Shown: positions 2,834 through 63,483 of the stretch, one piece after another | How positions within the stretch are numbered: the first letter of the stretch is position 1 | How the letters are laid out: each line of letters begins with the position of its first letter | Assembly: GCA_002346425.1 (NCBI GenBank) | Contig: DDZS01000065.1 | Coordinates: forward strand, 73 to 64,072 | DNA from: Alphaproteobacteria bacterium UBA3002 | Lineage (GTDB): Bacteria; Pseudomonadota; Alphaproteobacteria; Rickettsiales; UBA3002 | Direction: 5' to 3' | Length of the DNA: 64,000 nucleotides | Program-made: the position numbers and the translations under genes | The notes under the pieces: model-generated | The model's input: only the letters and a program-made list of their open reading frames with translations | The model's database searches: none | What the model was told of the DNA's origin: nothing

Positions 2834-5101
2834 CTACACTTCCCCAAACACATTGCTACGCGGGAAACCGACCGGGGGAAGCTTGCCCGTTCCGGCGCGG
2901 TTACCGAGCCAAGGGGTCATGTCTTCTTCCAGACGCACTTTGCTGCCCATTTGCCAGCTTAAGCCCTCGGCGAGCGTGAAGGTTTTCGCGTCAGACAGCG
3001 TGCCGCCTTTGTATTTTTGTAACGTGACGCCCTGTCCGCGCTTCATGTCGGGGATCTGGTCGAGCGGGAATACCAACAGCTTGCGACCCGTGCCGATAAC
3101 GGCGACGTGATCGCCCTCGACGGGAACGCAGACCCTTGCTTTGCCTTTGCCGGGGTTGAGAATCTGTTTGCCGCCCTTGGTTTGCGCCATCACTTCTTCT
3201 TCGGTAACGATAAAGCCCTTGCCCTGTTCGCTGGCGACCAGCAGCTTTTTCTTCGGTTCCGCAACTTTGATCATCAGCGGCGCGTCTTTCTGCTCCAACC
3301 CGATCATCAGGCGGATCGGCTCACCCTGCCCCTTGGCGCCGGGCAGCTTGTCGCAGCCGATGGTATAGAAGCGCCCATCCTCGCCAAAGACCAGCAGTTT
3401 ATCGGTCGTTTTGGCTTTAAGCTGGAAGGCAGCTTCATCGCCTTCTTTGAATTTGAGGTCGGGAATCTCGTCAAAATGCCCCTTAAACGCGCGCACCCAG
3501 CCCAGTTTCGAACACACAATGGTAATCGGCTCTTTCTCAATAAAGGCTTCCGGCGAAATTTGTAAACTTGGATCGGGTACATCGCCCAGTTCAGTGCGGC
3601 GCTTACCAAGCTCAGTTGCCTGTCCGAAGCGTTTTTTAATGTCTTTCACTTCGTCGCTGATGCGTTTCCAGCGGCCATCCTCATCTTGAAGTAACGCCTG
3701 AAGTTCTTTCTGTTCGGCCTTAAGTTCCTTATGTTCTTTTCGGATTTCCATCTCTTCAAGCTTGCGCAACTGACGCAGGCGCATGTTGAGGATGGACTCG
3801 GCCTGCATATCGGTCAGGCCAAAGACTTTCATCATTTCCTGCTTCGGCTCATCTTCTTCACGGATGATGCGAATGACCTCGTCGAGATTTAGGTAACAGA
3901 TCAGCAGCCCTTCAAGAATTTCCAGGCGGCGGGCGATTTTATCGAGGCGGTATTGCGTGCGCCGTTGCAACACGTCCATCCGGTGGTCGAGATAGGCCTG
4001 CAGCAATTCGCGCAGATTCATCACCTGCGGCACCCCATCGGCGCGCAGCACATTCATATTCATGCTGAATCGGCTTTCAAGATCGGTCACTTTGAACAGC
4101 GACTCCATCAGAATTTCCGCTTCCACCATGCGATTCTTTGGCTCCAGCACGATGCGGATATCCTCCGCCGATTCGTCCATAATATTGGCCAGCAGCGGCA
4201 ATTTCTTCGCGCGCCACAATTCGGCGATTTTTTCGATCAACTTGGATTTCTGCACCTGATACGGAATTTCCGTAATAATAATCTGATACATGCCATGCTT
4301 CATTGGCTCTTTATGCCATTTCGCGCGCATCCGCACCCCGCCGCGCCCTTCGCTATAGGCTTTCAGCAGATTCGCGGGCGATTCCACAATTACCCCGCCG
4401 GTGGGGAAATCCGGCGCTGGCATACGCGCCATCAGTGTATCAATCGCGGCATTCGGGCTTTTAATGAGGTAGAGCAGCGCATCGCAAATCTCGCCGAGGT
4501 TATGCGGCGGAATTGAGGTCGCCATACCAACCGCAATCCCCTCCGACCCGTTAGCCAGCAGATTCGGCAGGCCCGCAGGCATCACAATCGGCTCCTGCTC
4601 CTCGCCATCATAGGTCGGGCGGAAATCGACCGTGTCGGCGTCAATCCCCTCCATTAGCGCCATCGCCACTTCGGTCAGCCGCGCTTCGGTATACCGCATC
4701 GCCGCCGCGTTATCGCCGTCGATCGAGCCGAAATTCCCCTGCCCATCAACCAGCGGATAGCGCACCGCGAAGGCCTGCGCCAGTCGCACCATCGTGTCAT
4801 AGACAGCCGTATCGCCATGCGGATGGTATTTACCGATCACATCACCGACCACGCGCGCACATTTCTTGAATCCGGTATTCGGGTTCAGCTTTAGCTGCAA
4901 CATGGCGTATAACAACCGCCGATGCACCGGTTTCAGCCCATCGCGCACATCCGGCAGCGAGCGGCTGGTAATCGTCGACAAGGCATAAGCCAGATACCTT
5001 TCCGAAATCGCATCCTTAAAGGAGACGTCGACAATAGTTTCCGTGACCGCTGGTTTCTTAGGCATAGCAAGGGGTTTAGCGGGTTTCACCGGCTTTGCCA
5101 A
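2834..5101 (-). CDS. parC: DNA topoisomerase IV subunit A
   Basis: 755 aa. GyrA/ParC N-terminal breakage-reunion domain ([37 protein letters not shown]) without the long GyrA-type C-terminal acidic tail. A separate bona fide gyrA is at 54815. Confidence 0.9.
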
Positions 5102-5349
5102 TGGTGAAATCCCGTCTGTGTGCAGCTTTATACGCGCTTTTCGTCATGGCGTAAGGCAGAAACGTACCAGTAAATGGCGTTTTCTGCCGAGCTGAAAGTG
5201 TTGGCAGTCCAAGAATTTCAGAAGAGGGAAAGGAACCTTGGTGTTTGTATCAAACCACAAATACATAATATTCTGCAGCTCCAATGAGGGTTCCTAGTCC
5301 TGATATAAAGAATATTAAGCGCAGCCCTGCTCATTAAACCTGTGATGGC

Positions 5350-5362
5350 GGCAGTTTTTGCC
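5350..5362. promoter_or_regulatory. Palindrome GGCAGTTTTTGCC (GGCA-N5-TGCC), candidate enhancer (UAS) for a sigma-54 activator
   Basis: Its centre lies about 99 bp upstream of the GG of the sigma-54 promoter at 5454. The same palindrome plus about 17 flanking bp recurs at 57610, and a variant occurs at 21724. An FlbD-like activator is encoded at 61632. Confidence 0.5.
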
Positions 5363-5453
5363 TAGCTTATATTATTTGTATTTGACATAGGCATAAATTT
5401 CCCATAAAGTACGATTATCAGCAGTGGCTCGGCAAGCAAAGCAATAAAATAAC

Positions 5454-5469
5454 TGGCACGCTGATTGCA
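5454..5469 (+). promoter_or_regulatory. Sigma-54 (-24/-12) promoter TGGCACGCTGATTGCA
   Basis: Exact match to TGGCAC-N5-TTGCW with canonical GG-N10-GC spacing. It lies about 35 nt upstream of the AGGAGA Shine-Dalgarno and ATG 5503. Confidence 0.75.
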
Positions 5470-5502
5470 TAATAAAAACAAATAATAACAAGGAGACATG
5501 CA

Positions 5503-5736
5503 ATGGAAGACGTGCTGGACAGACAGAATACAGTAGCGCAGGCAGACGCCGCGATCCGCCAACTGGCCGAAGAGCAAGTGGTGTTTCTCAAAAACCGGTA
5601 CGGCATGGGTGCAGCAGATATCATCGCCCTATACGGTGGCAAGTCGCTTGGCAGCGCAAATTTTACCGATGCGATTGAGCATATCGCGGTCTTTAATATG
5701 GAAACCGCGCTGAAAAATGGGTTCATCGCCTCGTAG
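5503..5736 (+). CDS. Hypothetical 77-aa protein, predicted sigma-54-dependent
   Basis: ORF with AGGAGA 6 nt upstream of the ATG, a sigma-54 promoter upstream and a strong terminator downstream. No family recognised. Confidence 0.6.
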   Translation: MEDVLDRQNTVAQADAAIRQLAEEQVVFLKNRYGMGAADIIALYGGKSLGSANFTDAIEHIAVFNMETALKNGFIAS

Positions 5737-5761
5737 TTAGTAACGAAATACCTTGCCTAGC

Positions 5762-5808
5762 GCCGGTTTGGAGGGCTCCCAAAAGTCCAAACCGGCTTTT
5801 TCTTTTTT
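5762..5808 (+). terminator. Rho-independent terminator
   Basis: Perfect 11-bp stem GCCGGTTTGGA/TCCAAACCGGC followed by a T-rich run TTTTTCTTTTTT. Confidence 0.75.
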
Positions 5809-5943
5809 AAGCACCTAATCCTTCCACACGCGTTTGCATCACTCGTGCCGAAAAGCGCGCTCTATACATGTTGCACTGCACTAATAGGCTTTACGCTCGA
5901 CGCATTCTTTTGCTAAGATGACGACTAATCATAGGAATGCCTC

Positions 5944-6240
5944 ATGCCAAAAATTGATCCGCCAAAAGATGCCCAATCGCTGATCATCGGACTCATCCTG
6001 ATCATTGTACTTGCCGGCATTTTTGTGACGCTGCTGGCCTTAAGCGTTTACCAGCTCACCGAAGCGCGCGCCTGGTTTTACGACACCTCATTTGGCTATT
6101 CTCTGTATCACGAAATCCTGAATATCGGCTATGACAGCAAAGAAGAACGTATACTGATTTACTGCCTCGCCCCATTCTATGTGTTTCTATGCGGATTCGT
6201 GTTAAGCGCGATCATCCGTTTGGCCTCTGGCAAGAAATAA
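5944..6240 (+). CDS. Hypothetical membrane protein (98 aa, about 3 TM)
   Basis: Hydrophobic segments. 4-nt gap to the next ORF suggests an operon. Confidence 0.5.
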   Translation: MPKIDPPKDAQSLIIGLILIIVLAGIFVTLLALSVYQLTEARAWFYDTSFGYSLYHEILNIGYDSKEERILIYCLAPFYVFLCGFVLSAIIRLASGKK

Positions 6241-21712: not shown

Positions 21713-21723
21713 AACGTTAAATA

Positions 21724-21736
21724 GGCAGAAAATGCC
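21724..21736. promoter_or_regulatory. Palindrome GGCAGAAAATGCC followed by TAGCTAAGATTA; candidate FlbD-type operator
   Basis: Same GGCA-N5-TGCC + TAGCT.A.ATTA pattern as 5350 and 57610. Lies between the predicted flgB -10 and the flgB ATG (21765). Confidence 0.45.
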
Positions 21737-21764
21737 TAGCTAAGATTAACAAACAGGGATCGCT

Positions 21765-28329: not shown

Positions 28330-29817
28330 ATGCACCTCACCCCGACCGCCGACCAGTTCGCCGCGCAAGCGGGCAAACCACAACTTGTCTACACCAAGCA
28401 TGTGCTCGATCTGGAAACGCCCGTTTCCGCCATGTTGAAACTCATGCAGGCGGATGAACCTTGCTTTCTGCTCGAATCCGTCGAAGGCGGCGCATCCCGC
28501 GGGCGCTATTCGATCATCGGTTTAAAACCTGATCTAATCTGGCGTGCGCATGGCAACCGCGCCGAAATCAGTCGCCGCGCGCCATTTGCCGAAGACAGTT
28601 TCGAGCCCGCTTGGGATGATACGCTCACCTCGCTGAAAAAACTCGCGCGCGAAATGGAAATGGCGATTCCCGAAGGCTTGCCGCCCATGGCGGCTGGCAT
28701 TATCGGTTATCTCGGCTATCCGGCGGTAGGCTTAAGCGAAAAACTGCCCGATACCAATCCCGATCCTATCGGCATCCCTGACGGCATGTTCATGCGTCCA
28801 ACATCCGTTCTCATCTTCGATTCGGTCGATGGGGTGGTTTATATCATCGCGCTTGTCTGGCCGGATCAGGCACGCAGCTACGAGGGTGTGAGCCGCGAAA
28901 TTGAACAGACAGTACGCCTGTTGCAAGGCCCGGTCGATCAGCGTCACCAACATCGCGCCGGAACGCCTGCGCCGCTGACCTTTGAGCCAGCGATGACCAA
29001 GCAAGACTATTTCGCGATGGTCGAAAAAGCCAAAGACTATATTCAGGCGGGCGATATTTTTCAGGTCGTTCCCTCGCAACGTTTCAGTGCCGAGTTTACT
29101 CACCATCCGTTTGCGCTCTACCGTTCGTTGCGCCAATTGAACCCCTCGCCCTTCCTGTTTTATTTGCATTTCGGTGGGTTCACGCTGGTCGGTTCGTCCC
29201 CCGAAATCCTCGTGCGCGTGCGCGACGACACCGTCACCATCCGCCCCATTGCTGGCACCCGCCCACGCGGCAAAACCGCGGCGGAAGATCTGGCGCTGGA
29301 ACATGAGCTCCTCGCCGATGCCAAGGAATGCGCCGAACATCTGATGCTGCTCGATCTGGGCCGCAACGATGTGGGCCGCGTTTGCACCAAAGACAGCGTC
29401 CGCGTGACCGAGCAATTCATTATCGAACGTTACAGCCATGTCATGCACATCGTCTCCAATGTCGAAGGCACGCTGGACCGCAGCCGCTATGACGCCATCG
29501 ACGCGCTATTCGCGGGCTTCCCGGCGGGTACCGTTTCCGGCGCACCCAAAATCCGCGCCATGGAGATCATCGACGAACTCGAACCCCTGCGCCGCAGTTT
29601 CTACGCGGGCGGCACGGGGTATATCAGCGCTAACGGCTCGCTCGATGTCTGCATCAACCTGCGCACCGCCCTCGTCAAAGACGGCAAAGTCTACGCGCAG
29701 GCCGGTGGCGGCGTCGTCGCTGATTCCAGCGCCGAAGGCGAGTATCAGGAATCGGTCAATAAAGCCAAAGCCGTCATGAAAGCGGCAGAAAATGCCGGAC
29801 AGTTTAGTCCGAGCTAA
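28330..29817 (+). CDS. trpE: Anthranilate synthase component I
   Basis: Chorismate-binding domain motifs (SPE.LV, IAGT.PRG, LLDLGRNDVGRV, GTVSGAPK.RAMEII.ELE, R..Y.G..GY). An alternative start at 28309 overlaps ppiD. Confidence 0.95.
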   Translation: MHLTPTADQFAAQAGKPQLVYTKHVLDLETPVSAMLKLMQADEPCFLLESVEGGASRGRYSIIGLKPDLIWRAHGNRAEISRRAPFAEDSFEPAWDDTLTSLKKLAREMEMAIPEGLPPMAAGIIGYLGYPAVGLSEKLPDTNPDPIGIPDGMFMRPTSVLIFDSVDGVVYIIALVWPDQARSYEGVSREIEQTVRLLQGPVDQRHQHRAGTPAPLTFEPAMTKQDYFAMVEKAKDYIQAGDIFQVVPSQRFSAEFTHHPFALYRSLRQLNPSPFLFYLHFGGFTLVGSSPEILVRVRDDTVTIRPIAGTRPRGKTAAEDLALEHELLADAKECAEHLMLLDLGRNDVGRVCTKDSVRVTEQFIIERYSHVMHIVSNVEGTLDRSRYDAIDALFAGFPAGTVSGAPKIRAMEIIDELEPLRRSFYAGGTGYISANGSLDVCINLRTALVKDGKVYAQAGGGVVADSSAEGEYQESVNKAKAVMKAAENAGQFSPS

Positions 29818-54814: not shown

Positions 54815-57604
54815 ATGACAGAAAACACCGCAGCCGCCAATCCGACGATCTCCATTGAAAAGGAGATGAAGCAATCTTACCTCGATTACGCGATGAGCGT
54901 AATCGTCTCCCGCGCCATTCCCGATGTGCGCGACGGGCTGAAGCCGGTGCATCGCCGCATCCTGTTCGGCATGCTGGAACTGGGCGTCGATTACAATAAA
55001 CCCTACAAGAAATCGGCGCGTATCGTCGGTGATGTCATGGGTAAATACCACCCGCATGGTGACTCGGCGATTTACGATTCGCTGGTGCGCATGGCGCAAC
55101 CTTTTGCCATGTCGCTGCCGCTGGTCGATGGTCAGGGCAATTTCGGCTCGATGGATGGCGATAATGCCGCCGCCATGCGTTATACCGAAGCGCGTCTGGC
55201 GAAACCGGCGCATAGCCTGCTGAACGATATCGACGCCGACACCGTCGACTGGCAGGAAAACTATGATGGTTCAGAAAAAGAGCCAAAAGTATTACCCGCT
55301 GCCTATCCCAACCTGCTGGTTAACGGCGCGGGCGGGATTGCCGTGGGTATGGCGACCAATATTCCGCCGCATAATCTCGGCGAAGTGTGTGATGCAGCCT
55401 GCAAGCTGATTGACGCGCCGGAAACGAGCATCGATGAATTAATGGCGATCATCCCTGGGCCAGACTTCCCGACCGGGGGCACCATTCTGGGCCGCAGCGG
55501 GTCGCACAGCGCCATGCATACCGGCAAAGGCTCGGTTGTGTTGCGCGGCAAAACCGAAATCGAAGAAATCGGAAACCGCGAAGCGATCATCGTCACTGAG
55601 ATTCCGTATCAGGTCAACAAATCCAAACTGGTCGAGCGGATGGCCGAATGCGTGCGTGAAAAACGCGTAGAAGGCATTTCCGACCTGCGCGATGAGTCCG
55701 ATAAATCCGGCGTGCGCATTGTGATTGAGTTGAAGCGCGATGCGGTGGCCGATGTGGTGCTGGCGCAATTATTCCAGAATACACAGCTGCAAACCAGCTT
55801 CCCCGCCAATATGCTGGCGCTGCATCAGGGTCGCCCGCAGCAGTTGAACCTGAAAGACATGCTGGAAGCCTTTATTGCTTTCCGCGAAGAAGTCATCACC
55901 CGCCGCACGCGCTTCAAGCTTGGCAAAGCCCGCGACCGCGCGCATACCTTAATCGGTCTGGCGATTGCGGTGGCCAATATCGACGAAGTCATCGCCGTAA
56001 TCCGCGCCGCAAAAGACCCGAATGAAGCGCGCGAAGAACTGATGAATCGTAGCTGGAAAGCCGATGACGTCATCGCCCTGCTCGATCTGGTGGACGATCG
56101 CCGCAATGCGATTGAAGGTGGCAAAATCAAATTCACCGAAGAACAGGCAAAAGCCATTCTTGAACTGCGCCTGCAACGCCTGACCGGTTTAGAGCAGGAA
56201 AAAATTAACGGTGAACTCGCCGAACTGGCCGCAGAGATCAAAGAATTCCTCTCCATCTTGGGTGACCGTGACAAGCTCTATGGTATCATGCGCGCCGAAT
56301 TGGTGGCGATTCGCGAAGAATTCGCCGTACCGCGCCGCACCGAGATTGAAGAATCCGAATTCGAACTCGACATGGAAGACCTGATCGCGCGCGAAGAGAT
56401 GGTCGTCACCATCACGCAGAACGGCTATATCAAACGTTCGCCACTCGACACCTACCGCGCGCAACGCCGTGGCGGCAAAGGCCGCAAAGGCATGGCGACA
56501 CGTGAAGAAGACATGGTGACCACCTTATTCGTCGCCAACACGCATACGCCCCTGCTCTTCTTCTCGAGCATCGGCAAGGTCTACAAACTCAAAACTTATC
56601 GCCTGCCGATTGGGGAAGCCCAAGCGCGCGGTAAAGCGCTTATCAACATGCTGCCATTGGAACAGGGTGAGACGATTCAAACCGTGCTGCCATGGCCGTC
56701 TGTCGGGAATGGAAATGCGGAATTAGAGAATCAGGACGAAAACCCAAATCCCGAATCCCAAATCCCTAATCCCGTACACTCGCTGATCTTCGCGACCAAA
56801 CAAGGCAATATTCGCCGTAGCGAACTAAGTGATTTCGAGAATATCATGCGCAACGGTAAGATCGCGATTCGTCTGGATGATACCGATGAGTTGGTCAGCG
56901 TGCGCGCCGCGACCGATCAGCAGCATATTATGATGGCGGCCAAGTCCGGCAAATGTATCCGCTTTACGGTCGATGGCCTGCGCGTCATCAAATCGCGTAC
57001 CTCCAGCGGGGTGCGCGGCATGAAGTTGGCCAAAGGCGATGAAGTCGTGTTCCTGTCTATTCTGGACGGCGCGGAAATCGACATGGAAGAACGCAGCGCC
57101 TATTTGAAATGGGCTAACGCGCAACGCCGCAGTGGTGACGATGCCGAAGAAAGCAATGACGACGCGAGCGCCGGTGACATTGCAGAAAACCGCGCCCAGG
57201 AATTAAGCGAGAAGGAAGAATTCATCCTCTCCATTACCGAACGCGGCTACGGCAAACGCACCTCCGCTTACGAATACCGCATCACCAATCGCGGTGGTTC
57301 AGGTATCACCAATATTGTGACTTCGGAGCGTAACGGCCCGGTCGTCGCCAGCTTCCCGATCGAAGCGGGCGATCAGATCATGCTGATGACCAATGCCGGC
57401 AAAATGATTCGCACCCCGATTAAAGACGTGCGCATCGCCGGTCGCAACACGCAAGGCGTCAAACTATTCGACGTGGCCAAAGGAGAAGTCATCGTCTCCA
57501 CCGCCCGCATCAACGAAGCGATTATCGGTGTTGATATCGACGAAGAAGTGACTGAAGAAGGCATCATTGACACTGAAGTCACGCCAGATCAGGCTCCGGA
57601 ATAA
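54815..57604 (+). CDS. gyrA: DNA gyrase subunit A
   Basis: 929 aa. [40 protein letters not shown], a C-terminal beta-pinwheel and an acidic tail. Confidence 0.95.
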
Positions 57605-57609
57605 CTTAC

Positions 57610-57622
57610 GGCAGTTTTTGCC
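57610..57622. promoter_or_regulatory. Palindrome GGCAGTTTTTGCC, paralogous copy of 5350..5362
   Basis: Identical 16-mer GGCAGTTTTTGCCTAG, and 27 of 30 nt identical to the 5350 copy over the flank (..TTAGACTATTTGT). Lies about 270 nt upstream of fliF. Confidence 0.45.
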
Positions 57623-57877
57623 TAGGTTAGACTATTTGTGCACGATGAAATGCATAGCATTTGATGCAAAATGCGGATTCTGTCACAGTAGCGTTAGCAT
57701 CGGAGGCGTTTACCAATTCTTTACGCTTTAATTGTCCACATAGGAAAAAAATACCGAGTAAGTTGGCAAAAGCGTTTGCGACACCCCCGTTTTTATGGCA
57801 ATATAAGGGAGAAGTAGGAAAAACATACCTACGATATAAAAAAGTCATAAAGATAGCGTAAACAGAGAGGGTATCCG

Positions 57878-61631: not shown

Positions 61632-63023
61632 ATGCGACTATTGATCATCGGAGATTTAAACGGACAAATTGGCGCGGCGAGCCGGATTGCGCGCTCACGC
61701 GGCGCGAAAGTGGCGCAAGTGACCGATGCGCAGGGCGCGTATGACATGCTCTGCGAAGGCCAGGGTGCCGATCTCGTGATGATTGATGTCGGCGAGGATA
61801 TCGCCGAACTGGTCGCCTTGCTCGACAGCGCGCGGATCAGCATCCCCGTAGTTGCCTGCGGGATTGAGGCAGACACGCAAGCCGCCGTGAAAGCGATAAA
61901 AGCCGGGGCAAAGGAATATATCCCGCTCCCGCCCGATGAAGAACTCATTGCCGCCGTGCTGGAAGCCATCAGCGAGGAACATGATTCGGTGATTCACGGG
62001 TCGCCGGAAATGAAAGCCGTATTGCAAATGGCCGAACAAATCGCCGCATCGGATGCCAGCGTGCTGATCACCGGCGAGTCGGGCACGGGTAAGGAAGTGA
62101 TGGCGCGCTTTATTCACCAAAAAAGCCGCCGCGATACTAAGCCGTTCATCTCGCTGAACTGTGCGGCAATCCCGGAAAATCTGCTGGAATCCGAACTCTT
62201 TGGCCATGAAAAAGGGGCGTTTACGGGTGCGACCAGCCGCCGTATCGGGAAATTCGAAGAGGCCAATCAGGGCACTATCCTGCTCGACGAAATTTCCGAA
62301 ATGGATTTGCATCTGCAAGCCAAGCTACTGCGCGTATTGCAGGAACGCGAGATCGTCCGCATCGGTAGCAATAAACCGGTCAAAGTCGACATCCGCATTC
62401 TTGCCACCAGCAACCGTGATCTGGAAGCCTATGTCAAACAAGGCAATTTCCGCGAAGATTTGTATTTCCGCCTGAACGTGATCAATATCGGCATTCCCGC
62501 CCTGCGCGAGCGTATTGGCGATATCAAGCCGCTGGCTGAGTTTTTCATCGATAAATATTCCAAAGCCAATGGCCTGCCGCCACGGCATTTAAGCGCCGAT
62601 GCGCTGACCAAGCTGCAGCAACACCCATGGCCGGGCAATGTGCGCGAATTGGAGAACACGCTGCACCGTAGCGTGCTGTTGGCACAAGGCAATGAGATCA
62701 CCGCGGAAGCTATCCTGCTGCAAGGCCAACAAGCGCCGAAGCCAGCGGCTGCCACCGCCGCTCCCACGCCGGATCCCGATGCGCGCCCCGCCTTTGGCCC
62801 CACGCGCGAAGTCGATGAGGAAGACATCATTCACGATCGCAGTGTCGATGGCCCGAACCAAATGGTGGGCCGTTCACTCGCCGATGTGGAAAAGGAACTG
62901 ATTCTCGACACGCTCGATCACTGCCTCGGCAACCGCACGCATGCGGCCAATATTCTAGGCATTTCGATTCGCACCCTGCGCAACAAACTCAAGCAATATA
63001 ATGAGGGCGGCCATGCAGCGTAA
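61632..63023 (+). CDS. flbD: Sigma-54-dependent flagellar transcriptional activator, FlbD-like (degenerate receiver + AAA+ + HTH)
   Basis: AAA+ domain with GESGTGKE Walker A and the GAFTGA sigma-54 contact loop. C-terminal Fis-type HTH ([23 protein letters not shown]). The receiver lacks the N-terminal acidic pair (IIGDLNG). Confidence 0.85.
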
Positions 63024-63483
63024 GGCGCAGTCTGTCACCTTAGCGAAGGTTGCAGCGCCACTGGGCGACGTCCTTCGCCGCTATGATATGCTGTTGCTGG
63101 CGGCGGCGCTTATGCTACTTCTCTCCGCCTGCGCCCCATCGGATAAACCACCCTACCCGGCCTTCATGCAGCCGATTGTCGATTGCATCGCCAAAAAAGA
63201 CGCACCCTGCTTAGAGCAATATACGGATAGCAAAACACGACTGAGCTTCGGCGCGCCGGAAGATGCGACCTTGCTGCAAGATATTCAAAACACCTCGCAT
63301 CCACTCTGGGCCGATCTCGCCACGATCCAAGCCGATGGTTGCACCGCCTTCACCACGCCGGATGCGACGTCTTATATCTGCCCGCCCGAATCCGTCTGGC
63401 AGGATGATCTGGGCTACCGCATGATTGTCAAAGAAGATGCCAATGGCCGCCCTTATATTTTAAGCATGGTGGCTGGAGACTAG
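63001..63483 (+). CDS. Hypothetical lipoprotein (160 aa) within the fliF-flhA cluster
   Basis: Lipobox LLLSAC. No family recognised. Overlaps the flbD end. Confidence 0.45.
   Translation: MRAAMQRKAQSVTLAKVAAPLGDVLRRYDMLLLAAALMLLLSACAPSDKPPYPAFMQPIVDCIAKKDAPCLEQYTDSKTRLSFGAPEDATLLQDIQNTSHPLWADLATIQADGCTAFTTPDATSYICPPESVWQDDLGYRMIVKEDANGRPYILSMVAGD

What the first reader, a model, noticed from the sequence alone, without database searches (positions are those of the whole stretch)
5350..5736. Perfect sigma-54 promoter with a palindromic enhancer about 100 bp upstream drives a 77-aa ORFan far from the flagellar clusters
TGGCACGCTGATTGCA (5454-5469) matches TGGCAC-N5-TTGCW exactly, with canonical GG-N10-GC spacing. 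It sits about 35 nt upstream of AGGAGA-N6-ATG (5503). The palindrome GGCAGTTTTTGCC (5350-5362) is centred about 99 bp upstream of the -24 element, and the A/T-rich DNA between them is typical of an IHF-bent region. This is the architecture of bacterial enhancer-binding-protein promoters. The only such activator in the window is the FlbD-like protein (61632-63023, GAFTGA present). The same palindrome recurs at two flagellar operons (21724 and 57610). A perfect 11-bp-stem terminator follows the ORF. The 77-aa product (MEDVLDRQNTVAQADAAIRQLAEEQ...) matches no flagellar family I know. It may be a new late flagellar factor, such as a chaperone or regulator.
Basis: partly seen in the sequence, partly recalled or inferred. 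Interest (0 to 1): 0.6.

Follow-up and report, generated by a model that had tools for sequence, protein, structure and literature searches.

The report
FlbD/sigma-54-driven conserved small protein gene
A small, conserved, uncharacterised gene in an uncultured alphaproteobacterium has a textbook sigma-54 promoter and the upstream binding sites found at the flagellar regulator FlbD's other targets, so it is very probably switched on with the flagellar basal-body genes, although what its protein does is still unknown.

Summary
The exact -24/-12 element (5454-5469) is not significant as a motif: about 6 exact matches are expected per genome and 4 are found. Comparison makes it convincing. All 39 distinct homologous loci with enough upstream DNA carry a sigma-54 element just upstream of the start codon. 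Of 38, 31 carry GGCA-N5-TGCC palindromes, phased about 60, 100 and 140 bp upstream.

FlbD is the only activator with a GAFTGA loop in the assembly, and rpoN is present. A genome-wide scan for promoter plus palindrome ranks this gene first, then flgI and flgF. The same palindrome lies upstream of the fliF-fliG-fliH-flbD operon here and in relatives, including families that lack the small gene.

The gene is not an ORFan. It is found in 23 of 24 genomes of the family, with dN/dS about 0.12. It belongs to a narrow, unnamed family of 57-98 aa proteins. No Pfam, NCBIfam, PDB or BFVD relative was found.

No IHF site was found. Roles as a FliW substitute or an anti-sigma-28 factor were tested and rejected. 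Verdict: a new member of the FlbD/sigma-54 middle-gene regulon with unknown biochemical function. Interest is moderate.

The parts
5347..5365 (.). Distal FlbD-type enhancer site GGCGGCAGTTTTTGCCTAG (core GGCA-N5-TGCC); its centre is 100 bp upstream of the -24 GG
   Evidence: It scores 17.2 bits on a matrix built only from the other genomes' sites. Equivalent sites cluster at about 100-107 bp in the orthologs.
5387..5405 (.). Proximal, degenerate FlbD-type site ATAGGCATAAATTTCCCAT; its centre is 60 bp upstream of the GG and 40 bp from the distal site
   Evidence: 20.9 bits, the fifth-best site in the genome. Pairs of sites 40 bp apart are the rule in the orthologs.
5454..5469 (+). Sigma-54 promoter TGGCACGCTGATTGCA (-24 GG at 5455-5456, -12 GC at 5467-5468); the start of transcription is inferred near 5479-5481
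   Evidence: It is the top genome-wide hit of a promoter matrix built from the orthologs and is conserved in 39 of 39 homologous loci. The transcription start is inferred, not mapped.
5490..5496 (+). Shine-Dalgarno sequence AAGGAGA, 6 nt before the ATG
   Evidence: A strong Shine-Dalgarno sequence precedes the matching start codon in nearly all orthologs.
5503..5736 (+). Coding sequence of a 77-aa, three-helix protein from an unnamed family (conserved core AEEQVLFL..RY.M.P.EII.LYTG...A.Y.DAI..I..FN...A..GF)
   Evidence: Median dN/dS is 0.115. The AlphaFold2 model has pLDDT 88. There is no Pfam, NCBIfam, PDB or BFVD match.
5762..5808 (+). Intrinsic terminator: 11-bp stem followed by TTTTTCTTTTTT
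61632..63023 (+). flbD, the only GAFTGA sigma-54 activator in the assembly; it follows fliF, fliG and fliH in a fliF-fliG-fliH-flbD cluster
   Evidence: (NF050807 scores 710 bits against a cut-off of 750). The same gene order is found in 10 of 10 relatives examined.
57607..57625 (.). FlbD-type site TACGGCAGTTTTTGCCTAG upstream of fliF, in a position analogous to Caulobacter ftr4; a second site lies at 57740-57758
   Evidence: High-scoring palindromes lie just upstream of fliF in 5 of 10 relatives, including families that lack the small gene.
21721..21739 (.). FlbD-type site ATAGGCAGAAAATGCCTAG, 26 nt before the flgB ATG, between the divergent csrA and flgB genes (an operator-like position)
   Evidence: (23.0 bits, second best in the genome)

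Best explanation
The interval is a self-contained, monocistronic transcription unit read by sigma-54 RNA polymerase. FlbD, the flagellar enhancer-binding protein encoded 56 kb away in the same window, probably binds two phased dyad sites (TAGGCA-N5-TGCCTA type) centred 100 and 60 bp upstream of the -24 element. It would then contact the closed sigma-54 complex by DNA looping and open it by ATP hydrolysis. The unit ends at a strong intrinsic terminator. The gene would therefore be expressed together with the rod, ring and hook (middle) genes, after the fliF-operon products, including FlbD itself, have been made. Its product is a conserved cytoplasmic three-helix protein of 71-77 aa. It is probably a protein-binding accessory or feedback factor of the flagellar programme. 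What is shown: the motifs, their conservation and phasing, the shared architecture with flgI and flgF, the single GAFTGA activator, the presence of rpoN, and purifying selection on the ORF. What is inferred: FlbD binding, the transcription start, the timing, and any biochemical role.
For: The promoter is exact and has an SD-ATG 33 nt downstream. All 39 distinct homologous loci have a -24/-12 element upstream of the start codon. Of these, 20 are exact, 35 have at most 1 mismatch and all have at most 2. The null rates per 340-nt window are 0.4% for at most 1 mismatch and 4.3% for at most 2. This includes 5 of 5 distant homologues whose neighbouring genes are entirely different. Of 38 loci, 31 have GGCA-N5-TGCC with an A/T-rich spacer within 180 nt upstream, against a null of 5.8%. 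Distances to the GG cluster at about 60-67, 100-107 and 139-143 bp, which is a 20- or 40-bp phasing. rpoN is present. Only FlbD carries the [15 protein letters not shown] motif. The NtrX and C25 paralogues lack it. In the composite genome scan the top three hits are this gene, flgI and flgF. flgE and flgD also have sigma-54 promoters. In the complete relative G012, flgI has the same layout, with the promoter about 107 bp downstream of the palindrome. The palindrome lies upstream of the flbD-containing fliF operon here and in 5 of 10 relatives fetched, two of them from families without the small gene. This mirrors FlbD autoregulation at ftr4 in Caulobacter (PMC3930126). The ORF is under purifying selection, with median dN/dS 0.115, and folds confidently, with pLDDT 88.
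Against: I could not read the Caulobacter ftr consensus from the held literature, so the match to FlbD's known site rests on in-genome association and on my memory. The best-scoring palindrome in this genome lies in front of pilB, next to a sigma-70-like promoter. Another high-scoring site lies at flgB in an operator position. The palindrome is therefore not exclusive to sigma-54 promoters. FlbD scores 710 bits, just below the 750-bit equivalog cut-off. The assembly is 96.6% complete, so a missing activator cannot be strictly excluded. Relatives carry extra NtrC-like activators. Nothing links the protein itself to a flagellar structure, and seven loci, mostly distant ones, lack a recognisable palindrome.
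Confidence: 0.8

Rival explanations
1. The palindrome belongs to another DNA-binding protein, for example a motility or pilus regulator, NtrX, or the degenerate activator-like protein on contig C25. In that case FlbD would activate the sigma-54 promoter from other sites or from solution, and the palindromes would modulate the promoter or repress it.
For: The best palindrome in the genome precedes pilB, which has no sigma-54 promoter. The flgB site sits 26 nt from the ATG, an operator position. In the complete relative G012, the only two perfect TAGGCA-N5-TGCCTA sites in the genome are at the small gene and not at flagellar genes.
Against: The sites keep a fixed, helically phased distance from the -24 element across about 30 genomes, as expected for an enhancer-binding protein. 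The same sites precede the flgI and flgF sigma-54 promoters. They also precede the operon that encodes FlbD, in the place where Caulobacter FlbD is known to repress (PMC3930126). [quoted passage not shown]
Confidence: 0.1
2. A different sigma-54 activator fires the promoter. It could be one hidden in the unassembled 3.4% of the genome or, in relatives, one of the NtrC-like paralogues. The gene would then have nothing to do with the flagellar programme.
For: Relatives encode 1-3 further activator paralogues. The gene's neighbours are housekeeping genes: parC and hisI here, an AstE/AspA-like (aspartoacylase-family) gene, judged by eye and not searched, in relatives. G024 has the small gene, but no full FlbD ortholog was found there.
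Against: The six-frame scan of this assembly finds one GAFTGA activator only. The gene shares its site type with flgI, flgF and fliF. The three order-level genomes with no FlbD-family match at that threshold (G026, G027, G028) also lack the small gene.
Confidence: 0.06
3. The motifs are a chance match, and the ORF is read from the sigma-70-like promoter TTGACA-17-TAAAGT at 5382-5410.
For: About 6 exact sigma-54 consensus matches are expected per genome by chance. The sigma-70-like site matches 10 of 12 positions.
Against: The sigma-54 element is conserved in 39 of 39 loci. The sigma-70-like match is at or below chance for the region: 1 found against 2.0 expected.
Confidence: 0.02

Closest known systems
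Caulobacter crescentus class III flagellar promoters (sigma-54 plus FlbD bound at ftr enhancer elements, for example the hook operon flbG/flaN), and ftr4 at fliF
   Same: A sigma-54 -24/-12 promoter; dyad-symmetric activator sites about 100 bp away; an FlbD ortholog encoded in a cluster with fliF, fliG and fliH; the same site type at the fliF promoter, where FlbD represses in Caulobacter; rod, ring and hook genes in the same regulon (PMC3930126, PMC4083442).
   Different: The driven gene is a stand-alone small protein that lies outside any flagellar cluster and belongs to no known flagellar family. No IHF consensus is present. Flagellins here are not sigma-54-dependent, and FlbT is absent while CsrA and FliW are present. 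The sites are A/T-rich TAGGCA-N5-TGCCTA. I could not verify the published ftr consensus.
Feedback partners of enhancer-binding proteins that are themselves in the activator's regulon (PspA for PspF, HrpV for HrpS, FliX for FlbD)
   Same: A small helical cytoplasmic protein made from a sigma-54 promoter that carries among the best activator sites in the genome. This is the logic of an activator-driven modulator. It is an analogy recalled from general knowledge, not a tested link.
   Different: There is no sequence or fold similarity to PspA, HrpV or FliX, and no interaction evidence. A candidate fliX, identified by eye from its sequence and its position divergent from flgI and not confirmed by any search, is present in relative G012.
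   Same: Same gene family, same promoter and tandem sites, same conclusion.

Membership tests
Sigma-54-dependent (-24/-12) promoter | GG and GC doublets exactly 10 nt apart within TGGCAC-N5-TTGCW | tested here: met
   Exact match at 5454-5469
Sigma-54-dependent (-24/-12) promoter | rpoN is encoded in the genome | tested here: met
   PF04552 scores 216.8 bits at C58:5744-6223, in a 482-codon open frame
Sigma-54-dependent (-24/-12) promoter | The element is conserved at the same position in orthologs | tested here: met
   39 of 39 loci; null 0.4-4.3%
Sigma-54-dependent (-24/-12) promoter | Transcript start about 11-13 nt downstream of the GC; dependence on rpoN | not testable with these tools
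FlbD/ftr-type flagellar enhancer promoter | An FlbD ortholog with a GAFTGA loop and a Fis-type HTH is present | tested here: met
   NF050807 scores 710 bits over the full length, which is below the curated 750-bit cut-off. PF00158 and HTH_8 both match, and GAFTGA is present. The gene order fliF-fliG-fliH-flbD supports orthology.
FlbD/ftr-type flagellar enhancer promoter | Dyad-symmetric sites roughly 100 bp from the promoter, conserved and phased | tested here: met
   Sites at 100 and 60 bp here; 31 of 38 loci; clusters at about 60, 100 and 140 bp
FlbD/ftr-type flagellar enhancer promoter | The same site type occurs at bona fide flagellar sigma-54 promoters and at the fliF promoter | tested here: met
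   flgI and flgF rank second and third in the composite scan. flgI in G012 has the same layout. Sites lie upstream of fliF here and in 5 of 10 relatives.
FlbD/ftr-type flagellar enhancer promoter | An IHF site between enhancer and promoter | tested here: not met
   No WATCAANNNNTTR with up to 1 mismatch in 5340-5480; the spacer is 67% A+T and holds the second FlbD-type site
FlbD/ftr-type flagellar enhancer promoter | The sequence matches the published ftr consensus, and FlbD binds it | not testable with these tools
   The primary papers are not held; there is no binding assay
Known flagellar accessory protein families (FlgM, FlbT, FlaF, FliS, FliT, FlgN, FliW, FliX) | Sequence or fold similarity of the 77-aa product | tested here: not met
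   No Pfam or NCBIfam hit above noise for the protein or for 36 family members. No PDB profile hit. Foldseek gives nothing with E <= 0.001 against PDB or BFVD.

The most novel reading that the evidence does not exclude
The small protein is a dedicated output or feedback element of the FlbD checkpoint. It would be made from the strongest FlbD-dependent promoter as soon as FlbD becomes active. It would bind FlbD, FliX, sigma-54 or a non-flagellar target, and so either tune the flagellar hierarchy or pass the signal 'basal body assembled' to another process. Caulobacter work has postulated such a link between FlbD/FliX and cell division, but no effector has been identified. In this reading the whole family is an obligately sigma-54-dependent gene cassette whose promoter moves with the gene between genomic contexts.
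Probability: 0.15. Interest if true: 0.7.

Novelty: new member of a known kind. Interest (0 to 1): 0.4.

Why it matters
The gene adds a conserved, unannotated small protein to the FlbD/sigma-54 middle-gene regulon of a poorly known, uncultured alphaproteobacterial lineage. In this organism the regulatory logic is unusually clean, because there is one activator and one sigma-54. In several genomes the gene carries the best promoter and the best activator sites. In the complete relative G012, the only two perfect sites in the genome are at this gene. This suggests that it matters to the programme. It is also a compact test case. A promoter, two sites and a 77-codon gene could be rebuilt in a laboratory Caulobacter or E. 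coli reporter strain to define the DNA recognition of this FlbD clade and to look for the protein's binding partner. The regulatory design itself is textbook.

Tried and rejected
1. Substitute for FliW, the CsrA antagonist. Rejected: fliW is present in this genome (C23:9796-10158) and across the order, as is csrA.
2. FlgM-like anti-sigma-28 factor. Rejected: no FliA was found (the best TIGR02479 hit is the 793-codon RpoD frame at 108 bits) and no FlgM.
3. Replacement for FlbT. FlbT is absent from the whole order, whether or not a genome has the small gene, so its absence says nothing.
4. IHF-bent spacer. No IHF consensus was found.
5. Acidic chaperone-like character. Not conserved: ortholog pI ranges from 4.2 to 9.9.
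6. Remote homology. Pfam and NCBIfam on the protein, Pfam on 36 family members, PDB profile searches, and Foldseek against PDB and BFVD all gave nothing significant. Database names are all 'hypothetical protein'.
7. Mobile-element origin. tblastn found no match in phages or plasmids.
8. RNA element. No Rfam hit in 5100-6000.
9. Published ftr consensus. The primary papers are not held and searches found no open text giving it.
10. Expression evidence from public runs.
11. The TGCCTAG half-site next to the terminator (5754-5760). The heptamer occurs 80 times in the genome, so I treated this as chance.
12. The palindrome at 29784 lies inside trpE and lacks the TAG flanks, so I treated it as chance.

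Full report
**1. What is in the sequence**

- TGGCACGCTGATTGCA lies at 5454-5469.
- AAGGAGA lies at 5490-5496, 6 nt before the ATG at 5503.
- A 77-codon ORF runs to 5736.
- GGCAGTTTTTGCC lies at 5350-5362, with its centre 100 bp from the -24 GG.
- A terminator has an 11-bp stem (5762-5796) followed by TTTTTCTTTTTT, at -20.3 kcal/mol.

The promoter is the only match in the window to TGGCAC-N5-TTGCW, even when one mismatch is allowed. As a bare motif it is not significant. Shuffles give 0.18 exact matches per window, or about 6 per 2.26-Mb genome, and the genome holds 4. The palindrome pattern occurs 4 times in the window against 0.79 expected.

**2. The gene is real and conserved, not an ORFan**

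- A six-frame search of 40 relatives finds the protein in 23 of 24 genomes of the same family, at 46-58% identity. It is found only weakly in 2 of 16 genomes from other families of the order.
- Orthologs are nearly all 71 aa long and have a strong Shine-Dalgarno sequence.
- Median pairwise dN/dS is 0.115.
- A profile search of 1.84 billion cluster representatives returns only 37 clusters, all of 57-98 aa.
- Every name given by a source is 'hypothetical protein'.
- The public genomes that carry it are all uncultured alphaproteobacterial MAGs, variously labelled Rickettsiales, Azospirillaceae or Alphaproteobacteria.
- AlphaFold2 gives a confident three-helix model: pLDDT 88, helices at 2-33, 37-43 and 54-71.
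- Nothing significant matches it in Pfam, NCBIfam, PDB sequences, PDB folds or BFVD folds. There are no phage or plasmid matches either.

**3. The promoter is conserved with the gene**

I collected 58 homologous loci, which give 41 distinct coding sequences. Of these, 39 have enough upstream DNA to test.
- All 39 carry a GG-N10-GC element with at most 2 mismatches to the consensus, placed just upstream of the start codon. Twenty are exact and 35 have at most 1 mismatch.
- Random 340-nt windows of this genome reach at most 1 mismatch in 0.4% of cases and at most 2 mismatches in 4.3%.
- The set includes five distant homologues (E-values 1e-11 to 1e-13 against the family profile) whose neighbours are quite different: a pseudouridine-synthase gene, ruvB, a response-regulator gene next to pheT, and others. 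The promoter therefore travels with the gene.
- Within the family, the gene usually lies tail to tail with hisI and downstream of housekeeping genes. It is never inside a flagellar cluster.

**4. The enhancer**

- In 31 of 38 loci, the 180 nt upstream of the -24 element hold at least one GGCA-N5-TGCC with at most 1 core mismatch and an A/T-rich spacer. The null rate is 5.8%.
- Many loci have two or three such sites. The full consensus is ATAGGCA-AT-rich-TGCCTAT.
- Distances from site centre to the GG cluster at 99-107, 139-143 and 60-67 bp. Sites within a locus are 20 or 40 bp apart, which puts them on the same face of the helix.
- The window has two sites. The other is a degenerate site at 5387-5405, which scores as the fifth-best site in the genome on a matrix built only from other genomes.
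No IHF consensus is present.

**5. Who binds it**

- rpoN is present.
- PF00158 finds three activator-like genes. One is the window's flbD. It matches the FlbD equivalog model over its full length at 710 bits, against a cut-off of 750. The second is an NtrX (667 bits, above its cut-off). The third is a degenerate paralogue. Neither of the last two has GAFTGA.
- A six-frame regular-expression scan finds the activator signature [15 protein letters not shown] only in FlbD.
- In this 96.6%-complete assembly, FlbD is therefore the only protein able to open a sigma-54 complex.

Independent links between the palindrome and FlbD:
- (a) I scored all 613 sigma-54-like motifs in the genome by the best palindrome lying 35-200 bp upstream. 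The top three are this gene, flgI and flgF, followed by a weak candidate on C49 with no downstream ORF and then a gene of the C23 flagellar cluster. flgE and flgD also have sigma-54 promoters.
- (b) In the closed relative G012, flgI has GGCAAATTTTGCC with its sigma-54 promoter about 107 bp downstream.
- (c) flbD follows fliF, fliG and fliH, in the order fliF-fliG-fliH-flbD, in all 10 relatives examined. High-scoring palindromes lie just upstream of fliF in the window (57607 and 57740) and in 5 of those 10. Two of the five belong to families that lack the small gene. This is where Caulobacter FlbD represses its own operon through ftr4 (PMC3930126; ChIP-seq in PMC4083442).
- (d) The flgB site lies 26 nt before the ATG. 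That is an operator position, consistent with FlbD's known dual role.

I could not read the published ftr consensus because the primary papers are not held. The statement that ftr elements resemble GGCA...TGCC dyads rests only on my memory and is not used as evidence.

**6. Caveats on the enhancer assignment**

- The best palindrome in this genome (CTAGGCAATAAATGCCTAG) sits about 70 bp before a pilB-type ATPase gene, next to a sigma-70-like promoter.
- In G012, the only two perfect TAGGCA-N5-TGCCTA sites in the genome are those of the small gene.
- Either FlbD has targets beyond the flagellum, or another protein shares the site. I rate the second possibility at about 10%.

**7. What the regulon looks like, and what that says about function**

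- Flagellin genes (a 946-codon open frame on C23 and a 282-codon one on C41) have no sigma-54 promoter.
- There is no FliA, no FlgM and no FlbT. CsrA and FliW are present throughout the order.
- The hierarchy is therefore: early genes, including the fliF operon and flbD; then FlbD/sigma-54 middle genes (rod, rings, hook) plus this small gene; then flagellin, under CsrA-FliW control.
- Two specific functional ideas were tested and fail: a FliW substitute and an anti-sigma-28 factor.
- Charge is not conserved among the orthologs (pI 4.2-9.9), which weakens the idea of an export chaperone.
- FlbD orthologs occur in most families of the order, but the small gene is essentially confined to one family. 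It is a lineage-specific addition to an older regulon.

My best guess is a protein-binding accessory or feedback factor of the flagellar programme. The analogy is with activator-driven modulators such as PspA or HrpV. I give any flagellum-linked role about 0.4-0.5, and about 0.15 for the specific feedback or checkpoint-output reading.

**8. Comparison with what is known, and novelty**

- The cis-architecture is the classical Caulobacter class III design without a recognisable IHF site.
- The driven gene belongs to no described family.
I re-derived the claim independently and extended it.
- The finding is a new member of a known kind of system.

**9. Limits**

- There is no transcript, binding or phenotype data.
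- The organism is uncultured and the assembly is a draft in 82 contigs.

Noticed in passing
G000 contig C49:10065-10083 (outside the window); pilB-like ORF at C49:10152-12164: The best-scoring FlbD-type palindrome in the whole genome (CTAGGCAATAAATGCCTAG, 27.1 bits) lies about 70 bp upstream of a 670-aa GspE/PilB-type ATPase gene, identified by eye from its Walker motif. It sits next to a sigma-70-like TTGCTA-17-GATACT, and no sigma-54 promoter is nearby. Flagellar and pilus genes may share a regulator.
   Followed up: partly
G000 contig C41:27577-28218 (outside the window): The second-best sigma-54 promoter in the genome (TGGCATGCGAATTGCT) precedes two small ORFs of 97 and 77 aa with no Pfam match, about 4 kb from a flagellin gene. 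They are possibly further uncharacterised members of the sigma-54 regulon.
   Followed up: partly
window 5347-5380 and 57607-57640: The sites upstream of the small gene and of fliF share an extended stretch of about 30 nt (CGGCAGTTTTTGCCTAG[C/G]TTA.A.TATTTGT), well beyond the palindrome core. Each lies next to a type II topoisomerase A-subunit paralogue: parC is divergent at 5101, and gyrA ends at 57604. The cause is unexplained.
   Followed up: partly
window 57763-57779: TTGGCAAAAGCGTTTGC upstream of fliF looks like a -24/-12 element, but GG and GC are 11 nt apart rather than 10. It is probably not a functional sigma-54 promoter.
   Followed up: no
G000 contigs C23:9796-10158 (fliW), C23 (946-codon flagellin open frame) and C41:23379 (282-codon flagellin frame): fliW exists in this genome, in the C23 flagellar cluster, so the csrA in the window's flagellar operon is not orphaned. 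This corrects an earlier first-reader note. One flagellin open frame is unusually long (946 codons). Neither flagellin gene has a sigma-54 promoter, and no FliA, FlgM or FlbT is encoded.
   Followed up: partly
G000 contig C25:45456-45962 (outside the window): A 478-aa paralogue with response-regulator, AAA+ and HTH domains resembles an enhancer-binding protein but lacks the GAFTGA loop and matches no NCBIfam equivalog above its cut-off. It is a degenerate activator of unknown role.
   Followed up: no
window 5382-5410: A sigma-70-like TTGACA-17-TAAAGT (10 of 12 positions) overlaps the proximal FlbD-type site. The match is at or below chance for the region, and I did not check it in the orthologs.
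   Followed up: no
locus L060:240-300 (distant homologue P0021): In this distant homologue a palindrome, GTAGGAAATTATTACCTAC, lies between the sigma-54 promoter and the start codon, that is, downstream of the promoter rather than upstream.
   Followed up: no
window 63001-63483: A 160-aa ORF overlaps the end of flbD by 23 nt and has no Pfam match.
   Followed up: no
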